From: a virus
Virus genome (UHGV): UHGV-0136052
DNA length: 37,081 nt
Reading direction: 5' to 3' (one strand)
The notes beneath the pieces were generated by a model. The model was not told where the DNA came from, did no database searches, and saw nothing but the letters and a program-made list of their open reading frames with translations. A program made the translations under genes and the position numbers. Shown here piece after piece: positions 50 to 26,042 of this stretch; positions within the stretch are counted from its first letter, which is position 1, and the number at the start of each line of letters is the position of its first letter.

Positions 50-2644
50 CTACTCTATCTCTTTTGCTTTTTTAATTATCAATTCAAGCTCTGTTAAACG
101 AGATTCAATACGTTCACACCTTCTTCGCTGGAATGCAGCCTCCAACCACAAACATTCATCTGGACGCAATCCCCAACGCTCACCAGCATGTACAACCAGT
201 TCCGTTTCACCAGTATCGTATTCTTCAAAGTATTCGTGAACGATGTCTTCTCCTTCAGGGGATTTAGCTATAAATGACACCTTGCGCTGTGCCATTACAG
301 GTTGGTACTCATCATCCCATTTATCATGACATAGCAAGCCAAATCTTGTTCCATCTATCCCCTTTGCAAGAAACGCATCTCTTACCTGCTGTGCAATTGC
401 TCCGAAATGCCAACGAGCAGTATCCGAACCTTTAGCCTTAATATCGGACAACCACTGGTAAACGATAATATTTACGTCACCCCATGCGTCAAGAATTGCA
501 TCCTGATCCACCTCCATGATTTCTGAAAGTTGCTCTACTGTCAGTGGCTTTGTTTTCAATGTCTGGTCTGAAGTATTTATTGCCCCATTAGTTGCATATA
601 CTTGCGTCCACCGTTTAGATGATGTCCCACATGATGACGTATTATCTTTATTAGCACTTATATAGCCATTAACCTCCGCTGACTGACCGATATACGAATA
701 TGAAGATGTTGATAAGGGAGATTTAAATATCCATTGAGCATTGGTAAAGTCATAAATACCGGTATCACCTTTTTCACTAACATGAAAAGTTACATTCCGT
801 AACGTATTCTTTGCATCATAACGGGCGGCTTGTGTTGTTGCCCTCGAAACAGTGAATCCTTTGTCATCAAGGTTTGCCTGCTCTATGACTTCACCACCAG
901 GCATAATTTTACCAAGGCTTAACAAACCAGAGTTAGTGACAATATCATGGGTTGAATCAATGATAATACCAGGCTGATTTCTTGATGTTGTTTTTACATG
1001 CATGACCTGTTGTGGCATTAATGTGTAAAATGTAGTTTCTCGCCCACTATCACCATCTGGTATGCCATTTGTATTCCCCATTACAAGGTCATACCCACCT
1101 GCAATCATACGGAAAAACATTGCTTCTGGTTCATATGTAAGATTGCTAACATCTGGCGTTCCGGTATCATTTGGATCTGCTATTTCATAGGCTCTTCCTG
1201 CACCTGCCTGTATTTGCTGCACCCCAAGATAAACACCATCAAGTGTGTACTGATGCAAATATTTTCTGGTTGAAGAATATGCAGATCCAGCCTGACAAAA
1301 ATAAATAGCAGTACCGTCACACGCAACTGTTTGCATATCCCTCACAAAATCGGCAATTTCAAATTCAAAAGTTGCTTCATTACGATAATCGTAATTGTAC
1401 GCCTGCGGGTTAATAAATTTGCTGGTATCAAATACTTTTACATAATAGCGAATTTGATCTGGTGTTGATGGGCTCTCACCAGGGCCAACATAACGTTTTG
1501 CTGTAGTAATCAGCCATCGACTCATAGGGTCGGTGCATAAAACATTTACCTGATTCTCGTAACCATCTTCCCATATGAGAAAAAACTCTGGTTCAATTTC
1601 ACCACCATCAGTAGGGGTGAATCTGGTGATATACTTTGCGCGATCCTCTCCTTTAGCTGTGCCAGCTAACCCCCATATCTGTAACTGGCCTCTTGTGTTA
1701 CGAAAACCAACGCGCCCTATGGTTAAACCAAGACATTGATGTCCTAATTCTCTACTACCTTTAGTCTCCCAAAGAGGAGTTAACTCTTCATTCCCAAACC
1801 AATTATAAGCAACAACTTTATTAACTTCGTCACCAGAACTAACGCTGCCACTCACATTTACCAAGCAATAAAGAACACTGTCATAATAATCAAGAACAGC
1901 ACCCTGTATGACAGTATTTTTAATTGTTGCCAGTCGCAACCCTGACTTAACATGATTAGGAGTAGAAGGTCTGAAACCTGTATACATCCCCTTTTTTATA
2001 GTTTGTATTCTTTTTTCAGTAAAATCAGCATCTGGCAGTAATCGATTCTCTGTGCGAAAATAGCCATTTATATACTTATTTCCATCAAAAACTTGATCTG
2101 TTATATATGTATTACCCCTTAGATCAACAATCCTTCCTGTGATTTGTTTTTCTAACTCTTGAAAAGATAATGTGTCATCGGTGATGCCATCACCTTTTGC
2201 TCCCCATCCGCGAGGGTCAGCGTCATCACGCCACCGAGACATCTGCAATTCATGATATTTTTTAGCACCTTCCGGGTCTTCTAATTGTTGTCTTAATTGG
2301 TCAGGATCGTACTTAAGCACATTCGGAAAATAGAACTGCTGCGTACCATATGCATCGTAAACAGCCATAGAATGGCCTTGCACGGTAACGAATTTGGAAA
2401 TCTGTCCGTTGTATACCGGGTATCCAGCAGCATTGATAACGATTGGCTGTGGCACCTGAACATAAGTACCATCTTCTCGTTCCAGATATACTGGAATCTG
2501 GTTTTCTGGATTTACCGGATCTGTGTCAATCTTACCGATATAAATTTTTCCATTTGCTACGGTTTTAAAAGAACTAGCCATTGTGAAGAGTTGCGATGGC
2601 ATACCTATCACAACATTTGGGGTTATATCAGGCATATTAGTCAT
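50..2644 (-). CDS. Tailspike: P22 gp9-like head-binding N-terminus, unassigned central receptor domain, C-terminal intramolecular-chaperone-like domain
   Basis: N-terminus [21 protein letters not shown]...[15 protein letters not shown]...VLKYDPDQ matches recalled P22/Sf6 tailspike; start taken at internal Met (ORF extension upstream judged artifact); S-D-x-x-x-K motif near C-terminal 172 aa. Confidence 0.85.
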
Positions 2645-2989
2645 CCTGTTTGAAGATTTAGATATTGAAGAAAACGGAATGACTGCAGACAACGATGCAA
2701 TTGTTTTGAAAAATAACCTTCTATTCATTTAAAAACCATGCAACATGAACAAAACGATTATTTTACAATACTCAAGAATCTTGATCAACAGGCATATTAT
2801 TTATGCGCTTAATGCGTCACTTACAAAAATAAAAACAAGTAATACCTTTATTCCTATCGTCCATGATTTTTATTTTCAAACATTATTAAATAACAATTCC
2901 TATTTATAATATCTGTCATTTAATTTTCTCCAAATACAAGGAATCGCCGCAGCATTGCCGCAGTGATGTATTATTAATCAAAAAGATAT

Positions 2990-3002
2990 GACCACCGTGG
3001 TC
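2990..3002. promoter_or_regulatory. Perfect palindrome GACCACCGTGGTC, putative Mnt-type operator about 65 bp upstream of mnt
   Basis: Half-sites resemble recalled P22 Omnt core (GTCCACGGTGGAC); position upstream of mnt start. Confidence 0.4.
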
Positions 3003-3066
3003 TTATTGAGGATGCAACCAACAGATAATAAGATGCCGATCCACTCACAAAAGCGAGGCATCAAGA

Positions 3067-3318
3067 ATGGGAAGAGATGACCCGCAATTTAATCTGCGGA
3101 TATCTTACGAATTAAAGGAAAAACTAAAACAGCGAGCCAAATCCAATGGCCGCTCTCTTAATTCAGAATTAGTTCAGATAGTGACTGATGCTGTATCAAA
3201 GCCATCCAAAATTTCAGGCTATTGAGACGATGCGGAACGCATCGCTGATGAGCAGTCCGACCTTGTTAAGAAGATGGTGTTTGATACGCTGAAGGATTTG
3301 TACAAAAAACCCACCTGA
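3067..3318 (+). pseudogene. mnt: Mnt-like ribbon-helix-helix repressor interrupted by in-frame TGA at 3223-3225 (codon 53)
   Basis: Hand translation MGRDDPQFNLRISYELKEKLKQRAKSNGRSLNSELVQIVTDAVSKPSKISGY*DDAERIADEQSDLVKKMVFDTLKDLYKKPT matches recalled P22 Mnt (83 aa) across the stop. Confidence 0.7.
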
Positions 3319-3417
3319 CGGTAGGTTAATTTTTGCATTTACCTGGGCCATATTGACTACTTATAAAATGAGATCAATATTTAATCGCCCAATAACGGGT
3401 GTATGTTGAGGTATATC

Positions 3418-3597
3418 ATGGCGAAAAAACCAGGTGAAAACACAGGAAAAAACGGCGGAATATACCAAGAAGTTGGCCCGCGCGGCGGTAAGAAAGACAA
3501 TTTTGCCACCGTCAAGGACAACGAAAGGCTTCCACCAACAACAAAGCCAGGTCATGGCTGGGTATTAGATAAGCGAACTCCAGACAGCAAAAAGTAA
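3418..3597 (+). CDS. Small hypothetical protein (about 59 aa, Gly/Lys-rich)
   Basis: ORF with GAGGT Shine-Dalgarno before ATG; followed by hairpin terminator; family not recognised with confidence. Confidence 0.45.
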   Translation: MAKKPGENTGKNGGIYQEVGPRGGKKDNFATVKDNERLPPTTKPGHGWVLDKRTPDSKK

Positions 3598-3602
3598 TAA
3601 TC

Positions 3603-3626
3603 AAGCCGGGTCACTCCGGCTTTTTG
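3603..3626 (+). terminator. Rho-independent terminator hairpin (AAGCCGG-GTCACT-CCGGCTT followed by T-run)
   Basis: GC stem plus T5 directly after stop of the 3418-3597 ORF. Confidence 0.6.
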
Positions 3627-3976
3627 ATATGTCGCTCGCAGAACTCAACAAGCCTGCTCATTAAGTAGCAGTAAGTCTCGTTGGCTCTTCCTGGTTCAAC
3701 ATCAACACCGACCCTTGAGCAGATATCGAATGCCATGTGAGCGCACTCATGGGCAATAGTAGATAGTTTGCCATTGAACACGCCTATCACATGCAAAACA
3801 CCATTCTCGCTGCTCATTGTATGAGACGCTCCGTTGGCATCCGAGTCCTGCACGTCCACACCAAGTTTTTGATGCAGGCGTTGCCATTCTGGAAAGTCTC
3901 TACAAAACACAATTGTACCGCTCTCAAAGAGCGGAACGAGCATCTTTGGTACGTTTCCAATATTAACTTTTTTCAT
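3611..3976 (-). CDS. Small protein with HEXXH motif (HECAH), putative zinc metallopeptidase-like
   Basis: ORF with AGGA before internal Met (MKKVNIG...); HEXXH in ...STIAHECAHMAFD...; no family assigned. Confidence 0.5.
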   Translation of the reverse strand: MKKVNIGNVPKMLVPLFESGTIVFCRDFPEWQRLHQKLGVDVQDSDANGASHTMSSENGVLHVIGVFNGKLSTIAHECAHMAFDICSRVGVDVEPGRANETYCYLMSRLVEFCERHIKKPE

Positions 3977-4006
3977 GGTATCCTGCACAAAACTAAGGAG
4001 GTTGGT

Positions 4007-4396
4007 GTGAAGCAATTTCTTGCTGCTATGTTCTTATTCATATCTTTTGGGGCTACAGCAGAGTGCTGGGTCGTTGGAGATATGCGGGGAATAAGCTATT
4101 CAGAACGAAATAATTTCCATCCGGAAGAAGATGGTTTTAGTGGAACATTCATCATTAAGACAAGCGGTGAAGATGCCAGCATCACATATTCTGGGACAGA
4201 TGCGGGCGGCATGGCTTACAAAGCATTGTCTAAAAACTCCATCATAGGAATCGGCGCGAATGGCGAAACTCAACGCGTTATCGACTCATGGGTAATACAT
4301 CCTACTGGAACAGTTTTAATGTCAAAAACCATTTCCGGTTATGGAAATATGGATTCAACCAAAGCTTTTGTTGGAAAAGTAAAAAGAAAATGTTAG
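4007..4396 (+). CDS. Secreted small protein (paralog A), GTG start, predicted Sec signal peptide
   Basis: AAGGAGG 6 nt before GTG; hydrophobic N-terminus ending ATA|ECW; mature about 112 aa with Cys near both ends; about 30 percent identical to 28389-28793 product. Confidence 0.65.
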   Translation: MKQFLAAMFLFISFGATAECWVVGDMRGISYSERNNFHPEEDGFSGTFIIKTSGEDASITYSGTDAGGMAYKALSKNSIIGIGANGETQRVIDSWVIHPTGTVLMSKTISGYGNMDSTKAFVGKVKRKC

Positions 4397-4420
4397 CGAT
4401 TGAATCCAATTTCCCATACG

Positions 4421-6262
4421 TTACTGCTGTGTTGCCTCAGTAGCAAACAGCGGTCTGATGGCATTCGCAGCGTTATTTAGCGCTCTTTCATAGGCTGGTG
4501 TTCCTGCTTTGGTGTTTGCCAAACGAAGAAGCATATTCCTTGCGGCTTTGGACTCATACAAACGCATCATTGCACCAAAGCCAGCCTCAAGCCCCATTGA
4601 TACTCCAAGAGTCGCAGTTGCGCCAATCGTCCTTATCCTGTTGGCTTGTGATTGCCCCGTCTGAGTTACTACATTTGCGGTGTCTGACCTTGCTGTTTGC
4701 TGTAGAACTTCATGAAGAGCATCAAGCTCTTTCATGTGCTTTCCAGAAAAAATAGTGTTGTAAATTTCACCGCCTGACTGAGATTTAAGCTTATTAACTT
4801 CAGTGATGAACTTGGCTGGAGAGTCACCGGCCTTTTCCGCTATTTTGCTGACGTAAGCTGCACGCATAGCATCTTTCCCTTTATCATCCAATGCGCTCCA
4901 GATTCGTTTCACGTCAGATGGCTTTCTGCTTAATACAACGGTATTTATAAGTTCAGGACTGGCTTCACTGCTTGCCTTGTTGAGCTTGTTAGCAATGTTT
5001 TTATTAAGCACCTTATTATAAACGTTTGCATAATCGGAGTTTGCTTTAAGGTATTTTGCTGCGTCTGATGCACCGAGGTTTTTTGCAACTGCGTTACGAA
5101 GATCTTTTGACATTGCATTCTCTACCATATTGGTAGCTGCTTTTGCCTGGTTGGGGAAGACCATAGCATCTCCCTGAACATTGGATCTAAATGCTGTTCT
5201 GTGCTGACGCAAGAGATCAAACGTAACATCCAAATCAGTTGCAGGGTTTGCTAATTCTTCACGTAGGTTACGCAAGGATGTAAGCAGGCTTTGATTGGCA
5301 GACGTCCCAAGCCGTTCCTGTCTTGCGATCGCTGTATTCAGAGCATTCATGGTATTTGTGGTATCAACTGCGGCATTACCCATTTTATTGGTGACGTCAT
5401 TGATAACAGCGCCAGCGGCATCCTTCCGTCCCCTTAACGTGGTGGTCAGAGATTTCACCACATCATCAGGGTTGTACTCACCAAAACGGTCAAAATAATT
5501 GCTTACCAGCTTACTACGCGTTGCATATTGCTCCGCTCGCTTTGAGCCTGTCCCGAGCAAAGCCCCCTCAGCATCCTGAGTAAGTCCGCGAGTGAAAGCA
5601 TTTTTCGGCGGGATAACATCAGATGTCATTGGTGTCACGCCCATCGATTCTGATGTGGCAATTTTCTTCGCCACTTCTGGCGCAATATCACCTTTTATAG
5701 CCGTTATTCCACGCCCTATTCCCTTTGCTGCTGCGGAAAGAACACCCTGAGCGGCAAGGTTAACTCCGGCATTTTTAGCTGCATTTTGTGCGAAATCACC
5801 TTTCTGATTTGCGGCCTCTGCCAGTGATCCAATAGCCATGCTTCCTGCCGTTCCAACTCCTGGAACTAAATACCCGCCAATTGTTTCTCCAGCTTGAGCG
5901 TAGGGGTCTGTCGGTCTGTCTACTGGACGATAGACATCATCCAATACTTTTGGCCCACCAAGCCCCTGACTGATTGCATTAATCAGACTTGCGCCACCCT
6001 GCAATACGTCAAATGGTATGTTTACCAGACCACGACCAGCCTGTTCTGCAATTTGCCCTGCACTTTGACCACCAGTGAGCCAATCGCCAGCTTGTTGCAT
6101 CAATGATGGTTCTTCCCGTGTTGGTGCATTATTGTCCTGATTAACTGTTTTTTGCTGAACAGCCTGACCAGCAAAATACTCATCAATGGCGGTGCCAATA
6201 TCTTCCGTGCTCGTACCATCAGGGAAGGTAAATGTCTTACCGTTTGCAGTTACTTTCATCAT
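4421..6262 (-). CDS. Ejection/internal protein, P22 gp16-like
   Basis: Size (613 aa) and position after gp20 in P22 gene order; Ala/Gly-rich. Confidence 0.75.
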
Positions 6263-11457: not shown

Positions 11458-11677
11458 CTGCTGCCGCCTTAGGTTTTCGACCAGGCTTTTTACGCTGTTT
11501 TTCTTCTGGCTCTGGCTCTGGCTCTGGCTCTGCAACATCCTTCAGAAGGTCATCCGGATGTGCAAACCAACCAGCATCCAGATATTCCTGAAGCTCTTCG
11601 GCTTTCACGATTTCAAAGTCGTAGCCAACGCCTTTCCACTTCTTCATGTCGCCATGACGAAAGATCATGTGTGTCAT
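11435..11677 (-). CDS. Small ORF between coat and gp4 with EPEPEPEP low-complexity segment
   Basis: Position equivalent to a small ORF after the P22 coat gene; start uncertain. Confidence 0.35.
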
Positions 11678-16107: not shown

Positions 16108-17607
16108 TTAAGTTCTCCGTGCGATGGGCCTGATTGGGGCTGGTATCTTTTTCTCTTTTGGTTTTTTGATGTCGCGCATCATTTTTGCGAAGCGGCGCAT
16201 CATGTATGCATAGCGAACGGCGGATAGCACGTCGTCGTTAAGCTTGACGATTTTCCCGTTTTCATCACGGTGATAGAGGCGGAACTCCTCAAAGAATGGC
16301 TCACAGGTGTTGAATACTTTGAAGCGACCGTCGAGCATCATGTCTCGCAATTCAGTGATGCCAGGCTCAACAGCATTACCGCCATCAGGCCATGTCGCAT
16401 GCTCCTGCAACATCATAAAACCAGCGTCCGCGTACTGCCCTTTAAGCTGCTCACCGCCGCCCTTCTCATGCTGGTTTCCGTCATGAGGCCATGCGGTTGG
16501 CACTTTATGCGCCCATGATTTAACAGCTCACCACGCCTGAACGGCTGTCTTTTCTTTCGCCTTCCACACGCGTGAAACGTAGATTGTGTCTGCGTCCTTA
16601 TCCCACCAAAGCTGAACCTGCGCCTGAGGGTGATCCCATCCGAAATCCATCCCACCAATTACGTAGAAGTGATCAGGACACTCGAACGGCTGACACTTAA
16701 TCGTCTCTTCCGGTATCTGGAAGATTCGACCGCTACCCATCGTAGGAATACCGCGAGCACGCGCCTCTCTCTCATGCTCTGGATAGGATGCGATGATTTG
16801 CTCTTTCTGCTCGTCGGTATAGTGCTCAGCGTCATAGATGGTCATGTTGACCACTTTCTGCGACTTGCTGGGGTTCTTCAGGAACTTGGTAACAACGTCA
16901 GACATCCCCATCAGCGGGGTAAACGTCAGAATTGAGAATTGCCCGTATTTGTTGGTACGGGTAAGCCCTTCGCCATAAATGCTGTATGGTGGTTCTTCGT
17001 CAAACCACACGCCGTGGATTGTGTCACCCTGCCAGCGAGCACGGCCTTGCGAGTATGGTTTGAAGTAGCAGATTGAAATGCCATCTTCAACGCCATCAGC
17101 CGTGTGATGCTTAACCAGAAGATGATCAACAAGGTTCGGAAAGAAAGGAGACTTCTTCCAGCTAATGATGTCTTCTTTCGGTATGGAACCGTAGCCAGGT
17201 TCACCATTCTCTTCGATACGACCGCACAGGATGCGTTGAGTCGTTTTGGTTACAGTCTCGTTTGTCTCTCCACCAATCCAGAAGACAACAGGCTCATAGA
17301 AACGCTTACCTTTCCACTCACCGCCATATTTACCATCAGCAGGATAGCCTTTTGTGCCCGGATAACGCCCGGTAAGGTGAAACGCGACTTCAGCAGCACC
17401 AGTAAATGACTTACCAAGCTGGTTACCAGCCATAAAACATCGCTCTGGATAGTCATGCCCGGCGTCGATGAACTCACGCTGTTTGCTGTATGGCGTAAAT
17501 TCATATAGCAGGTGTGTGTTACGGTAGTTCTCTTCTTCTTCGAGTAGCTCGAGCAATTCGATTTGCTCTTCGTCGCTCAGGTTATCAAGAATCGCGTCCA
17601 GTTCCAC
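16108..17607 (-). pseudogene. Terminase large subunit, P22 gp2-like, interrupted by in-frame TGA at 16528-16530 (codon 360 of 499)
   Basis: Two ORFs (359 aa and 131 aa) share one frame and are separated only by a TGA; total 499 codons equals recalled P22 gp2 length. Confidence 0.75.
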
Positions 17608-20966: not shown

Positions 20967-21042
20967 TGGTGCTGATTAACGGACTTGAACCGCCACCCAT
21001 TCGCTTACAAGGCGACTGCTCTACCATTGGAGCTAAACCAGC
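20967..21042 (-). tRNA. tRNA-like gene, anticodon UGU (Thr) with encoded CCA; some stems contain G-U pairs or mismatches
   Basis: Hand-folded cloverleaf: D-arm GCTC/GAGC, anticodon loop CTTGTAA, T-loop GGTTCAAGTCC. Confidence 0.5.
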
Positions 21043-21047
21043 ATGTT

Positions 21048-21122
21048 TGGCGGGACAGCGTGGACTCGAACCACGATAAGAAGGTTAACAGCCTTCCGTA
21101 ATGACCTTTATACGACTGACCC
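21048..21122 (-). tRNA. tRNA-like gene, anticodon GUU (Asn) with encoded CCA; acceptor and D stems each contain a mismatch
   Basis: Hand-folded cloverleaf: anticodon arm GAAGG-CTGTTAA-CCTTC, T-arm CGTGG-TTCGAGT-CCACG. Confidence 0.55.
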
Positions 21123-24155: not shown

Positions 24156-24592
24156 GCAGCCTTGTCTCCCCATCTTGCTTTCCACTCCAGAGCCAGTCGC
24201 GCTTCGTCTGACCACTTAACGCCACGTTCTGTACCGAATGCCTGTATAAGCTCTAATAGCTCCGCAAATTCGCCTACCCGCATCCTACTGGTTGACTGGC
24301 CTATTACCACAAAGCCAGTCCCGGCAAGGTTAGGAACAACGTCCTGCTGCTTTAAGGCTGCGGTAAACACACACTTCCAGCTTTCTGCATCCAGCCAGCG
24401 ACCATGCCATTCAACCTGACGAGAGACGTCACCAAGGCAAGCCCAAAGCTTTCGATTCTGGTCTAAGCTGCGGTTGCGTTCCTGAATGGTTACTACGATT
24501 GGTTTGGTTGGGTCTGGAAGGATTTGCTGTACTGCGTGAATAGCGTTTTGCTGATGTGCTGGAGATCGAATTTCAAAGGTTAGCTTTTTCAT
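24152..24592 (-). CDS. ninB: NinB recombination protein
   Basis: MKKLTFEIRSPAHQQNAIHAVQQILPDPTKPIVVTIQERNRSLDQNRKLWACLGDVSRQVEWHGRWLD... matches recalled lambda NinB, 146 aa. Confidence 0.9.
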   Translation of the reverse strand: MKKLTFEIRSPAHQQNAIHAVQQILPDPTKPIVVTIQERNRSLDQNRKLWACLGDVSRQVEWHGRWLDAESWKCVFTAALKQQDVVPNLAGTGFVVIGQSTSRMRVGEFAELLELIQAFGTERGVKWSDEARLALEWKARWGDKAA

Positions 24593-24665
24593 GACTTCCC
24601 TCTCCCCCAAATAAAAAGGCCTGCGATTACCAGCAGGCCTGTTATTAGCTCAGTGATGTAGATGG

Positions 24666-26042
24666 TCATACGTCAGCCCCTTGTGCATATCGTCTGCCAC
24701 GCGCAGCAGGTGCATTTGATGCTGTACAAATCTGTCTGGCTTCATCCTGGTCACATGCAACAAAGTGTCCGTTACAGAACCGCTGGTAAACCGTACCAAG
24801 TGAGCCAAAACGGTTTTTCGTCACGATGATTTCAGCAAATGGCGCGGCGCTACTGTTCTCGTCATATACCGCTTCCCGATAGAGCATGATGATTGAGTCT
24901 GCGTCCTGCTCAATGCTTCCTGAATCACGCAAATCTGCGTTTGTCGGGCGTTTGTTTGGTCGCTTCTCAACATCGCGTGAAAGCTGACTTAGGGAGATAA
25001 CAGGCGTTTTCAGGTCTTTCGCCATCGCCTTAAGGCTTCCGGAGATGTGAGCAATTGCGAGGTCGTTGCGGTCTGCTTTCGGCTTCTCAATCAGGCCAAG
25101 ATAATCCGCCATGATGAGTGACAGGTTTGGATTTTCCTGTTTGTGCCGTTCTGCGATTGAGCGAATTTCTTCGACAGATAACCGCGAGGCATCGACTACC
25201 CATACATCCAAATCTGCAAGCTGACTCATGCCGTTAGCAACGCGCGCCCAGCCTTCGTCATCCATCGATGCAGGATTTCGCAGCACGCTAACCGACATCC
25301 TCCCGGCGTTGGCAATGCTTCGCTCTGCAATCTGCAATGCGCTCATTTCCATCGAGAAAATCAATACTCCGCGCCGGACGTCAGAACCAGGAATAACGCG
25401 GCTTGCAACGCCTTCGGCAATCTTCAGCGCCAGTTCGGTTTTCCCCATACCAGGACGAGCGGCGATAATCACCAGGTCTTCCGCGTTCATCCCTCCGGTG
25501 ATGGCGTCAAGTTCTTCGATTCCGGTCTTCAGGGTATCTGACTCTTCTCCGTTCCTCAGACGCCTGTCAAGCGTGTCAGTGTAGTCAGTGATGATTTCCC
25601 CTAACCGTACAGGTTTAACCTCGTCACGGGGCTTTCTGATGGCTGAGAGCCGTTTTACAAGTTCATCCATCGCCTGACTCGATGCGTCGATGGTTCCGCT
25701 TTGGATTGGTTCACGCATTTCATCCATGATTTCCAGCACCAGACGGCGGTGATAGTTATCCGCGACCATTCCGGCATATCCCTTCAGGTTTGCGGCACTC
25801 GGGCAGTTTTTGCTGGTCATCAGGATTGACATGAAATGCTCCTCTCCGCATTCCTCAGCAACCATCAGCGCGTCGATTAGGTTTCTGTTTCGCGCCTGCT
25901 TGCGGATAACCTCGAAGGCTTTTCTGTAGAGCGGAATTGAAAACGCTTCCGGCTCCAGCGTTGCCAGAACGTCACTGGCGGTTGGAGTTAATCCACCAAT
26001 CAGCAGGCCACCGATAACGCTCGCTTCGATATCCTGTCTCAT
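24666..26042 (-). CDS. Replicative DNA helicase, DnaB family (P22 gene 12-type)
   Basis: 458 aa; Walker A ARPGMGKT; DnaB-like C-terminal domain; follows O-like gene. Confidence 0.85.

What the first reader, a model, noticed from the sequence alone, without database searches (positions are those of the whole stretch)
2729..3318. Decayed immI region: mnt with a nonsense codon, operator palindrome retained, arc and ant absent
The mnt homolog matches P22 Mnt over 83 codons but codon 53 is TGA, which would remove the C-terminal oligomerisation segment. A perfect palindrome GACCACCGTGGTC resembling the Mnt operator core lies upstream, yet no arc or ant ORF exists in the 340-bp AT-rich spacer before the tailspike. 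The region appears to have lost its antirepressor circuit and gained the unrelated cargo genes at 3418-4396.
Basis: partly seen in the sequence, partly recalled or inferred. Interest (0 to 1): 0.45.

Follow-up and report, generated by a model that had tools for sequence, protein, structure and literature searches.

The report
Nonsense-mutated mnt in a decaying P22-like prophage
A small phage repressor gene (mnt) in an E. coli P22-like prophage carries a genuine, inherited stop codon, and this is ordinary prophage decay: public annotation already flags it, and the gene layout around it is already described.

Summary
It arose by one CGA>TGA transition.

The stop is real and inherited:
- It is present in E. 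coli A3 and A26, where PGAP annotates 'internal stop'.
- The exact 52-aa product is encoded on at least 20 public contigs.
- Homologues are normally 82-86 aa.

The stop falls on the first residue of the solved Mnt tetramerisation domain (PDB 1QEY). The product is therefore a bare ribbon-helix-helix (RHH) domain.

The palindrome GACCACCGTGGTC (2990-3002) is the positional homologue of the P22 Mnt operator.

- Absence of arc and ant is the state of a whole clade that includes isolated phages such as ST160 and JEP4, and this 'ant moron' variation is published. mnt is under purifying selection in those phages.
- The first 'cargo' gene is 98% identical to P22 orf59a, which lies next to mnt in P22 itself.
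- The spacer is not an arc/ant remnant. It holds a relic tailspike leader and start codon plus a 272-bp AT-rich insert shared with phage JEP4.

The window also has a second nonsense codon, in the terminase large subunit (16528-16530). This is a recently defective prophage. Interest is low.

The parts
3067..3318 (+). mnt pseudogene (Arc/Mnt ribbon-helix-helix repressor). The translated product is 52 aa. Codons 54-83 still encode the Mnt C-terminal domain.
   Evidence: tblastn with P22 Mnt: 72% over 83 aa. Pfam Arc PF03869, E = 2e-20, covering positions 2-49 of the 50-position profile. PGAP annotates 'internal stop' in A3 and A26.
3223..3225 (+). TGA nonsense codon at codon 53, replacing Arg (CGA in the closest intact relatives)
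   Evidence: Codon alignment. Arg is present in 67 of 68 homologue clusters at this position. PDB 1QEY, the Mnt tetramerisation domain, starts exactly at this residue.
2990..3002 (.). Mnt operator homologue: perfect palindrome GACCAC-N-GTGGTC
   Evidence: Aligns with P22 GGTCCACCGTGGACC at the same distance from the mnt start. The arms are conserved and the central base varies (C/T/G) in ZH063, 720R6 and ST160. It is the only copy in the window.
3006..3034 (+). Putative mnt promoter: TTGAGG, 17-nt spacer, TAAGAT
   Evidence: Read from the sequence. It aligns with P22 TTGAGA-17-TATCAT in alignment A1. It scores 8 of 12, below the scan threshold. Inferred, not shown.
2967..2989 (.). Junction segment between the operator and the gene-9 leader. 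This is where the 1.3-kb arc-ant cassette sits in P22.
   Evidence: Homology to P22 stops at 2966 on one side and resumes at the operator on the other. P22 annotation.
2908..2966 (-). Relic of an ancestral tailspike leader, Shine-Dalgarno sequence (GGAG) and first four codons (ATG ACA GAT ATT at 2919-2908)
   Evidence: 84% identical to the P22 ant-gene 9 intergenic leader plus the gene-9 start. Alignment A2 shows conservation in P22, ST160, 720R6, JEP4 and ZH063, with divergence right after codon 4 in the window, ZH063 and JEP4.
2636..2907 (.). AT-rich insert (GC 26-33%) between the relic start and the present tailspike start
   Evidence: Composition. Among 50,697 phage records it occurs only in phage JEP4, at 99.7%. 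Present at about 92% in ST131-type E. coli prophages. No Rfam match.
50..2635 (-). Tailspike gene: P22-type head-binding domain plus a C-terminal Peptidase_S74 chaperone domain
   Evidence: Pfam Head_binding E = 4e-61 and Peptidase_S74 E = 4e-10. The start at 2635 matches PGAP in A3 and P22 gp9 residue 1.
3418..3597 (+). orf59a homologue, function unknown
   Evidence: 98.3% protein identity to P22 ORF59 and the same 99-bp spacing from mnt. phrog_3202, E = 7e-31.
3611..3976 (-). Gene of unknown function, SE1/ST160 'orf64' family
   Evidence: phrog_1365, E = 1e-39. Annotated at the same position in ST160, A3 and ZH063.
4007..4396 (+). Gene of unknown function with a hydrophobic N-terminus. It occupies the slot where sieA lies in P22.
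   Evidence: phrog_2651, E = 9e-61. Annotated in A3. No SieA homology.

Best explanation
The window is a P22-like (Lederbergvirus-type) prophage of E. coli. Its region between gene 16 and the tailspike gene is the already described 'mnt-only' version of the variable immI / 'ant moron' slot. It contains mnt with its operator and promoter, orf59a and two small genes of unknown function, but no arc, ant or sieA.

In this particular prophage lineage a single C>T transition changed Arg53 (CGA) of mnt to TGA. Translation now stops exactly at the boundary between the N-terminal RHH DNA-binding dimer domain and the C-terminal coiled-coil that makes Mnt a tetramer.

In P22 Mnt the C-terminal domain stabilises the tetramer. 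From memory of Waldburger & Sauer 1995, tetramerisation is needed for tight binding to the operator. The 52-aa product is therefore most likely a crippled or inactive repressor. With no ant gene to keep silent, its loss has no lethal (inducing) consequence, so the allele drifted to fixation in a clonal host lineage.

The operator and promoter look intact simply because the mutation is recent.

The same prophage has since acquired a nonsense codon in the terminase large subunit. It is now a cryptic, slowly decaying prophage.

Shown here: the mutation, its inheritance, the domain boundary, the homologies, and the second nonsense codon. Inferred: loss of function of the 52-aa product, and neutrality of that loss.
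For: - CGA>TGA at codon 53 compared with intact relatives.
- The allele is present in A3 and A26 with the PGAP note 'internal stop', and on at least 20 public contigs.
- Only 2 of 194 complete E. coli genomes with this mnt type are at least 99% identical. The one next-best hit examined (Ecol_AZ159, 98.4%) is an intact 83-aa gene.
- The 68 full-length homologue clusters taken from the protein search (partial entries left out) are 80-86 aa, 67 of them 82-86 aa, and most carry PF03869 plus PF11423.
- PDB 1QEY (tetramerisation domain) begins at residue 53, and 1MNT covers residues 3-77.
- The TGA lineage carries substitutions at otherwise near-invariant positions: P13S (Pro in 68 of 68 clusters) and L12I (Leu in 67 of 68). 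Together with E65D that makes 3 non-synonymous changes, 1 nonsense change and 0 synonymous changes relative to 720R6. In contrast, pN/pS is 0.14-0.19 among intact ant-less phages.
- There is no Arc, Ant or SieA homologue anywhere in the window.
- The mnt-only architecture is shared with isolated phages and is described in PMC2629481 and PMC8022706.
- A second nonsense codon (GGA>TGA) lies in the terminase large subunit. It is absent from A3, H22 and TUM9803, and the truncated product is found on at least 24 contigs, including the scaffold that carries the truncated mnt.
Against: - The 52-aa product retains the complete Arc-type RHH domain, and the cut is exactly at the domain boundary. Residual DNA binding as a dimer cannot be excluded.
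- The promoter, Shine-Dalgarno sequence and operator are intact.
- The substitution counts are too small for a statistical test of relaxed selection. Four changes with none synonymous has p of about 0.3 under neutrality.
- No expression or binding data exist for this allele.
- The statement that tetramerisation is needed for tight operator binding rests on my recollection of Waldburger & Sauer 1995. That paper could be cited through PMC3325190 but not read.
Confidence: 0.85

Rival explanations
1. The truncated 52-aa protein is a still-functional, Arc-like dimeric repressor. Under this reading the nonsense codon converts Mnt into a minimal RHH regulator that autoregulates, occupies the operator, or interferes with the Mnt of incoming phages. 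The allele would then be maintained rather than decaying.
For: - The complete Pfam Arc domain is retained.
- The stop lies exactly at the boundary of the separately folding C-terminal domain.
- The promoter, Shine-Dalgarno sequence and operator are intact.
- The allele persists on at least 20 contigs.
- Arc itself is a 53-aa protein of this fold.
Against: - The allele is rare: 2 of 194 complete genomes with this mnt type.
- The pattern of near-identical flanks fits one clonal origin.
- P13S and L12I hit positions that are invariant or nearly so in 68 homologue clusters.
- All intact homologues keep the C-terminal domain.
- The prophage carries another inactivating mutation.
- From memory, the isolated N-terminal domain of P22 Mnt binds the operator much more weakly than the tetramer.
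Confidence: 0.08
2. The TGA is a sequencing or assembly error, and the gene is intact in the living strain.
For: It is a single-base change. No reads were available here.
Against: - The same base is present in two complete genomes and in the window, which differs from them at other sites.
- The exact product is encoded on at least 20 independently assembled contigs from ENA and JGI.
- It is a substitution, not a homopolymer indel.
Confidence: 0.01
3. The TGA is decoded (selenocysteine, or programmed or leaky read-through), so that both a 52-aa dimer form and an 83-aa tetramer form are made.
For: - UGA is the leakiest stop codon in E. coli (general knowledge).
- The downstream 30 codons remain open, with only one change (E65D).
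Against: - The RNA downstream of the TGA does not fold better than shuffled controls: z = -1.44, and 22 of 200 shuffles fold at least as well.
- There is no Rfam element in the region.
- The next base is G, a context that I recall (not checked here) as terminating fairly efficiently in E. coli.
- Relatives encode Arg here.
- An open downstream frame is expected for a recent mutation.
Confidence: 0.04

Closest known systems
Bacteriophage P22 immI region (mnt - Omnt/Pant/Pmnt - arc - ant) next to gene 9
   Same: - Same position between gene 16 and the tailspike gene.
- mnt diverges from the tailspike gene.
- 72% identical Mnt.
- Homologous palindromic operator at the same distance from mnt.
- Aligned Pmnt-like hexamers.
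- orf59a 98% identical and at the same spacing.
- Conserved gene-9 leader.
   Different: - No arc, ant or sieA, and no sar match.
- The positions of the Pant -35 and -10 hexamers read TCGGCA and TGCATC, so they are not promoter-like (read from alignment A1).
- The operator arms are GACCAC instead of GGTCCAC, and residue 7 is Gln instead of His.
- mnt carries a nonsense codon.
mnt-only 'ant moron' of P22-like phages (ST64T, ST104, L, SE1, ST160; E. coli phages vB_EcoP-720R6, Gally)
   Same: - mnt directly adjacent to the tailspike gene, with the operator and gene-9 leader between them.
- An SE1-orf64-type gene follows.
- 86-96% nucleotide identity over 2907-3420.
- Described in PMC2629481 and PMC8022706.
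   Different: - Those phages have an intact 83-aa Mnt and a spacer of about 135-146 bp.
- The window has the TGA, plus a 272-bp AT-rich insert and a relic tailspike start.
Prophage of E. coli A3 / A26 (NZ_CP028771, NZ_CP028749)
   Same: - 99.8% identical over the whole 37-kb window.
- Same chromosomal neighbours.
- Same TGA in mnt, annotated as a pseudogene with 'internal stop'.
   Different: - A3 has an intact terminase large subunit.
- A3 has a capsid gene annotated as frameshifted.
- The window has L12I in mnt and a patch of dense SNPs at 24226-25482.
P22 Mnt N-terminal domain / Arc repressor (RHH dimers; PDB 1MNT, 1ARQ)
   Same: The 52-aa product corresponds to the RHH domain alone and is about the size of Arc, which is 53 aa.
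   Different: Arc achieves tight binding through cooperative dimer-dimer contacts on its own operator. There is no evidence that this truncated Mnt does the same.

Membership tests
Mnt repressor (Arc/Mnt RHH family, PF03869 + PF11423) | N-terminal ribbon-helix-helix (Arc-like) DNA-binding domain | tested here: met
   Pfam PF03869, E = 2e-20, positions 2-49 of 50. PDB 1MNT, E = 1e-32.
Mnt repressor (Arc/Mnt RHH family, PF03869 + PF11423) | C-terminal tetramerisation domain translated as part of the protein | tested here: not met
   The DNA still encodes it: 1QEY aligns to residues 53-83. However, the TGA at codon 53 precedes it. Homologues are 82-86 aa and most carry PF11423.
Mnt repressor (Arc/Mnt RHH family, PF03869 + PF11423) | Cognate palindromic operator upstream of mnt | tested here: met
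   The palindrome at 2990-3002 aligns with the P22 operator. It is conserved in 10 related loci.
Mnt repressor (Arc/Mnt RHH family, PF03869 + PF11423) | Binds the operator and represses the ant promoter | not testable with these tools
   There is no ant gene. Binding requires EMSA or a reporter assay.
P22-type immI region (mnt-arc-ant-sar) | arc gene next to the operator | tested here: not met
   The only tblastn hit for Arc is mnt itself.
P22-type immI region (mnt-arc-ant-sar) | ant antirepressor gene | tested here: not met
   The best tblastn E-value in the whole window is 0.88.
P22-type immI region (mnt-arc-ant-sar) | Strong Pant promoter overlapping the operators | tested here: not met
   The aligned hexamers read TCGGCA and TGCATC (alignment A1). 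No promoter-like site lies between the operator and mnt (about 3003-3066) on the minus strand, where Pant would be.
mnt-only 'ant moron' of P22-like phages (Villafane et al. 2008) | Variable segment between gene 16 and the tailspike gene that contains mnt but no arc or ant | tested here: met
   Gene order is gp16 (4421-6262), three small genes, mnt, tailspike. The same order occurs in ST160 and 720R6. Literature.

The most novel reading that the evidence does not exclude
The nonsense codon created a natural 'mini-Mnt': a stand-alone RHH dimer, cut exactly at the experimentally defined domain boundary, that still binds the conserved operator.

Such a protein could act as a weak autoregulator, or could compete at the operators of superinfecting P22-like phages.

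Related point: mnt is under purifying selection in phages that have no ant (pN/pS about 0.15). This implies an ant-independent role for Mnt that is still undefined. Candidates are silencing the antirepressor of incoming phages, or tuning late read-through into the tailspike gene.
Probability: 0.08. Interest if true: 0.35.

Novelty: already known. Interest (0 to 1): 0.1.

Why it matters
It matters little on its own. This is a correctly spotted pseudogene in a prophage that is losing function. RefSeq already flags it in near-identical genomes, and the mnt-only layout has been described since 2008.

Two minor points of value remain:
- It is a clean natural example of a nonsense mutation falling exactly on a biochemically defined domain boundary.
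- It draws attention to a small open question: why ant-less P22-like phages keep mnt and its operator under purifying selection.

The double nonsense (mnt and terminase) also gives an ordered record of decay for one clonal prophage lineage.

Tried and rejected
- Rfam scan of 2300-4600 at E up to 1, looking for sar RNA or any other RNA in the AT-rich spacer: no hits.
- Promoter and terminator scan of 2550-3450. Promoter-like sites did not exceed chance (2 found, 3.8 expected). The three terminator-like sites include the operator palindrome itself. None was used as evidence.
- Fold of the RNA downstream of the TGA, looking for a recoding or SECIS-like hairpin: not better than shuffles, z = -1.44.
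- Search for further operator copies that would point to other Mnt targets: none within 2 mismatches.
- Search for the origin of the AT-rich insert. Only phage JEP4 among 50,697 phage records has it, and the ultimate source remains unknown.
- The + strand ORF at 2745-2909 (54 aa) inside the insert was considered and dismissed. It is AT-rich, and neither PGAP nor the metagenome gene callers call it.
- The primary biochemical papers on Mnt domains (Waldburger & Sauer 1995; Knight & Sauer 1989) are not held in the library. They are cited only through reference lists and from memory.
- The second literature search for Mnt domain structure returned mostly irrelevant papers.

Full report
**What the window is.** The window is a P22-like prophage of E. 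coli. It is 99.8% identical over all 37,081 bases to a prophage in E. coli strains A3 and A26, which were isolated from Australian wildlife. The gene order is that of P22, running on the minus strand: portal, scaffold, coat, gp4, gp10, gp26, gp14, gp7, gp20, gp16. A short variable segment follows, and then the tailspike gene. The finding concerns that variable segment.

**Checking the observation.**
- mnt lies at 3067-3318 on the + strand. P22 Mnt aligns over all 83 codons at 72% identity.
- Codon 53 (3223-3225) is TGA.
- The closest intact relatives (the prophage of E. coli ZH063 and phage vB_EcoP-720R6) have CGA there, and ST160 and P22 have CGC. One C>T transition accounts for the stop.
- The palindrome GACCACCGTGGTC lies at 2990-3002 and is unique in the window.
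- In a five-way alignment it falls exactly on the P22 sequence GGTCCACCGTGGACC, at the same distance from the mnt start codon. Its arms are conserved while the central base varies (C, T, G) in ZH063, 720R6 and ST160. I recall that P22 sequence to be the Mnt operator.
- tblastn with P22 Arc, Ant and SieA finds nothing in the whole window apart from the expected Arc-to-Mnt similarity.
The tailspike gene starts at 2635 (MPDITPNVV, aligned to residue 1 of P22 gp9; this is also the PGAP start in A3), not at 2728. The spacer is 431 bp.

**Is the stop real, and is 52 aa the natural length?**
- The stop is present in two complete genomes, where PGAP annotates the gene as a pseudogene with an internal stop.
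- The window is a distinct sequence, with 65 mismatches and several indels relative to A3. It still carries the stop.
- The exact 52-aa product of the window allele is encoded on at least 20 public contigs from ENA and JGI assemblies, with the same neighbours.
- The allele is rare. Of 194 complete E. coli genomes that carry this mnt type, only A3 and A26 are at least 99% identical. The next best hit examined is an intact 83-aa gene.
- In the 5.8-billion-protein collection the homologues are 82-86 aa, apart from fragments labelled partial. Most carry both the Arc domain and the Mnt C-terminal domain PF11423.
- Arg is found at position 53 in 67 of 68 homologue clusters.
The lineage is not naturally 52 aa, and the codon is not an error.

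**Where the protein is cut.**
- A search of solved structures shows that the NMR structure of the Mnt tetramerisation domain (1QEY, 31 residues) begins precisely at residue 53, the TGA codon. 1MNT covers residues 3-77.
- The 52-aa product spans the complete Pfam Arc domain, positions 2-49 of 50.
- The mutation therefore yields a bare RHH dimer domain without the coiled coil.
- That the C-terminal domain stabilises the Mnt tetramer is stated in PMC3325190, citing Waldburger & Sauer 1995. That the isolated N-terminal domain binds the operator much more weakly is my recollection of that paper, which I could not read.

**Signs of relaxed constraint.**
- Relative to phage 720R6, the window's mnt has three non-synonymous changes (L12I, P13S, E65D) plus the nonsense change, and no synonymous change.
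- Pro13 is invariant in 68 of 68 homologue clusters, and Leu12 is present in 67 of 68.
- P13S and E65D are shared with A3, while L12I is unique to the window.
- By contrast, mnt compared among phages that lack ant (720R6, ZH063, ST160) has pN/pS of 0.14-0.19.
- The numbers in the TGA lineage are too small for a formal test, but they point towards decay rather than a newly selected function.

**The absence of arc and ant is not a local event.**
- The same layout, with mnt directly beside the tailspike gene, is present in Salmonella phages ST160 and SE1, in E. coli phages vB_EcoP-720R6, Gally and JEP4, and in the E. coli prophages examined. Across the roughly 270 E. coli genomes matched, the features listed under the match are an Arc-family gene and a tailspike gene.
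- Villafane et al. 2008 (PMC2629481) named this variable slot the 'ant moron' and noted that ST64T, ST104 and Para1 contain only mnt plus one gene of unknown function.
[quoted passage not shown] - The layout is far older than the TGA. Synonymous divergence in mnt is about 0.33 between ST160 and the E. coli phages, and zero between the window and 720R6.
- In the alignment with P22, the positions of the Pant -35 and -10 hexamers read TCGGCA and TGCATC, which are not promoter-like. The hexamers that I take to be Pmnt are preserved: P22 TTGAGA-17-TATCAT against window TTGAGG-17-TAAGAT at 3006-3034. The promoter assignments are my inference from the alignment and from memory of the P22 literature.

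**What the spacer really is.**
- Read on the minus strand, 2966-2908 is 84% identical to the P22 leader that lies between ant and gene 9. It includes the Shine-Dalgarno sequence and ATG ACA GAT ATT, the first four codons of the tailspike gene.
- In 720R6, ST160 and P22 the tailspike coding sequence continues from there.
- In the window, ZH063 and JEP4 it is replaced after codon 4 by 272 bp of AT-rich DNA (2636-2907, GC 26-33%). The present tailspike gene then starts at 2635.
- Among 50,697 phage records this insert occurs only in JEP4, at 99.7%. JEP4 is an isolated phage, so the insert is presumably compatible with tailspike expression.
- The spacer therefore records an exchange of the tailspike module, not erosion of arc and ant.
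- The arc-ant cassette of P22 would sit between 2966 and 2990.

**The 'cargo' genes.**
- The gene at 3418-3597 is 98% identical in protein to P22 ORF59/orf59a and lies 99 bp after mnt, as it does in P22.
- The gene at 3611-3976 (-) belongs to phrog_1365 and corresponds to 'orf64' of SE1 and ST160.
- The gene at 4007-4396 (+) belongs to phrog_2651.
- All three are ordinary, unexplained occupants of this slot. They are not recent acquisitions linked to the loss of ant.

**A second inactivating mutation.**
- The terminase large subunit (16108-17607, -) has an in-frame TGA at codon 360 (16528-16530). Strains A3, H22 and TUM9803 have GGA (Gly) there.
- The resulting 359-aa fragment is encoded on at least 24 public contigs, including the same 562-kb scaffold that carries the truncated mnt.
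- The inferred order of events is: mnt nonsense first (shared with A3 and A26), then terminase nonsense (window lineage only).
- A3 in turn has a capsid gene annotated as frameshifted. That may be real or an assembly artefact.
- The prophage is a recently defective, vertically inherited element.

**Mechanism.**
- In an ant-less prophage, Mnt has no antirepressor to silence, so losing it does not induce the prophage. The nonsense allele could therefore drift to fixation.
- The most likely state of the 52-aa product is a weakly binding or inactive RHH dimer.
- The operator and promoter persist only because too little time has passed for them to decay.

**Rivals considered.**
- A still-functional Arc-like mini-repressor: about 8%.
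- Read-through or recoding: about 4%. The RNA fold downstream of the TGA is unremarkable and there is no Rfam element.
- Sequencing error: about 1%.

**Verdict.** The finding is real but ordinary and already annotated. It is wrong for arc and ant, for the spacer and for the neighbouring genes.

Noticed in passing
window 16108-17607 (-), stop at 16528-16530: The terminase large subunit carries an in-frame TGA at codon 360. A3, H22 and TUM9803 have GGA (Gly) there. The 359-aa fragment is encoded on at least 24 public contigs, including the scaffold that carries the truncated mnt. The prophage should be unable to package DNA.
   Followed up: yes
window 2908-2919 (-) and 2636-2907: A relic tailspike start (SD GGAG, then ATG ACA GAT ATT) is followed by a 272-bp AT-rich insert, upstream of the present tailspike start at 2635. 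Among sequenced phages the insert is shared only with JEP4. It looks like the scar of a tailspike-module exchange. The origin of the insert is unknown.
   Followed up: partly
window 2636-2728 (-): The tailspike ORF is open for 31 codons upstream of the conserved start ([14 protein letters not shown]...). The JEP4 GenBank record and a JGI gene call use this long form, while PGAP uses 2635. The extension lies in the AT-rich insert and is probably not translated.
   Followed up: no
window 3067-3102 and 2990-3002: In the E. coli/ST160-type Mnt, residue 7 is Gln in all 68 homologue clusters, where P22 has His (His6 in mature numbering, which I recall as a specificity determinant). The operator arms read GACCAC instead of GGTCCAC. 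This looks like co-variation of the repressor's recognition strand and its operator.
   Followed up: partly
mnt in related loci L002, L003, L004: mnt is under purifying selection (pN/pS 0.14-0.19) in phages that have no ant gene. This implies an ant-independent function that the literature leaves open (PMC8022706).
   Followed up: partly
window 24226-25482: There is a dense patch of about 40 SNPs relative to the otherwise nearly identical A3 prophage, in the ninB / replicative helicase region. It is probably a recombination patch.
   Followed up: no
window 11505-11516: There is a 12-bp indel (TCTGGCTCTGGC) relative to A3, in a region where the A3 annotation places two overlapping genes (a gp4-family gene and a small hypothetical gene). 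It is an in-frame repeat-number difference.
   Followed up: no
window 20967-21122 (-): Two prophage-borne tRNA genes, tRNA-Thr(TGT) and tRNA-Asn(GTT), lie between the Q-type antiterminator gene and the lysis genes.
   Followed up: no
window 50-2635 (-): The tailspike combines a P22-type head-binding domain with a C-terminal Peptidase_S74 intramolecular chaperone domain, and has a weak match to the endosialidase N-terminal extension. Receptor specificity is unknown.
   Followed up: no
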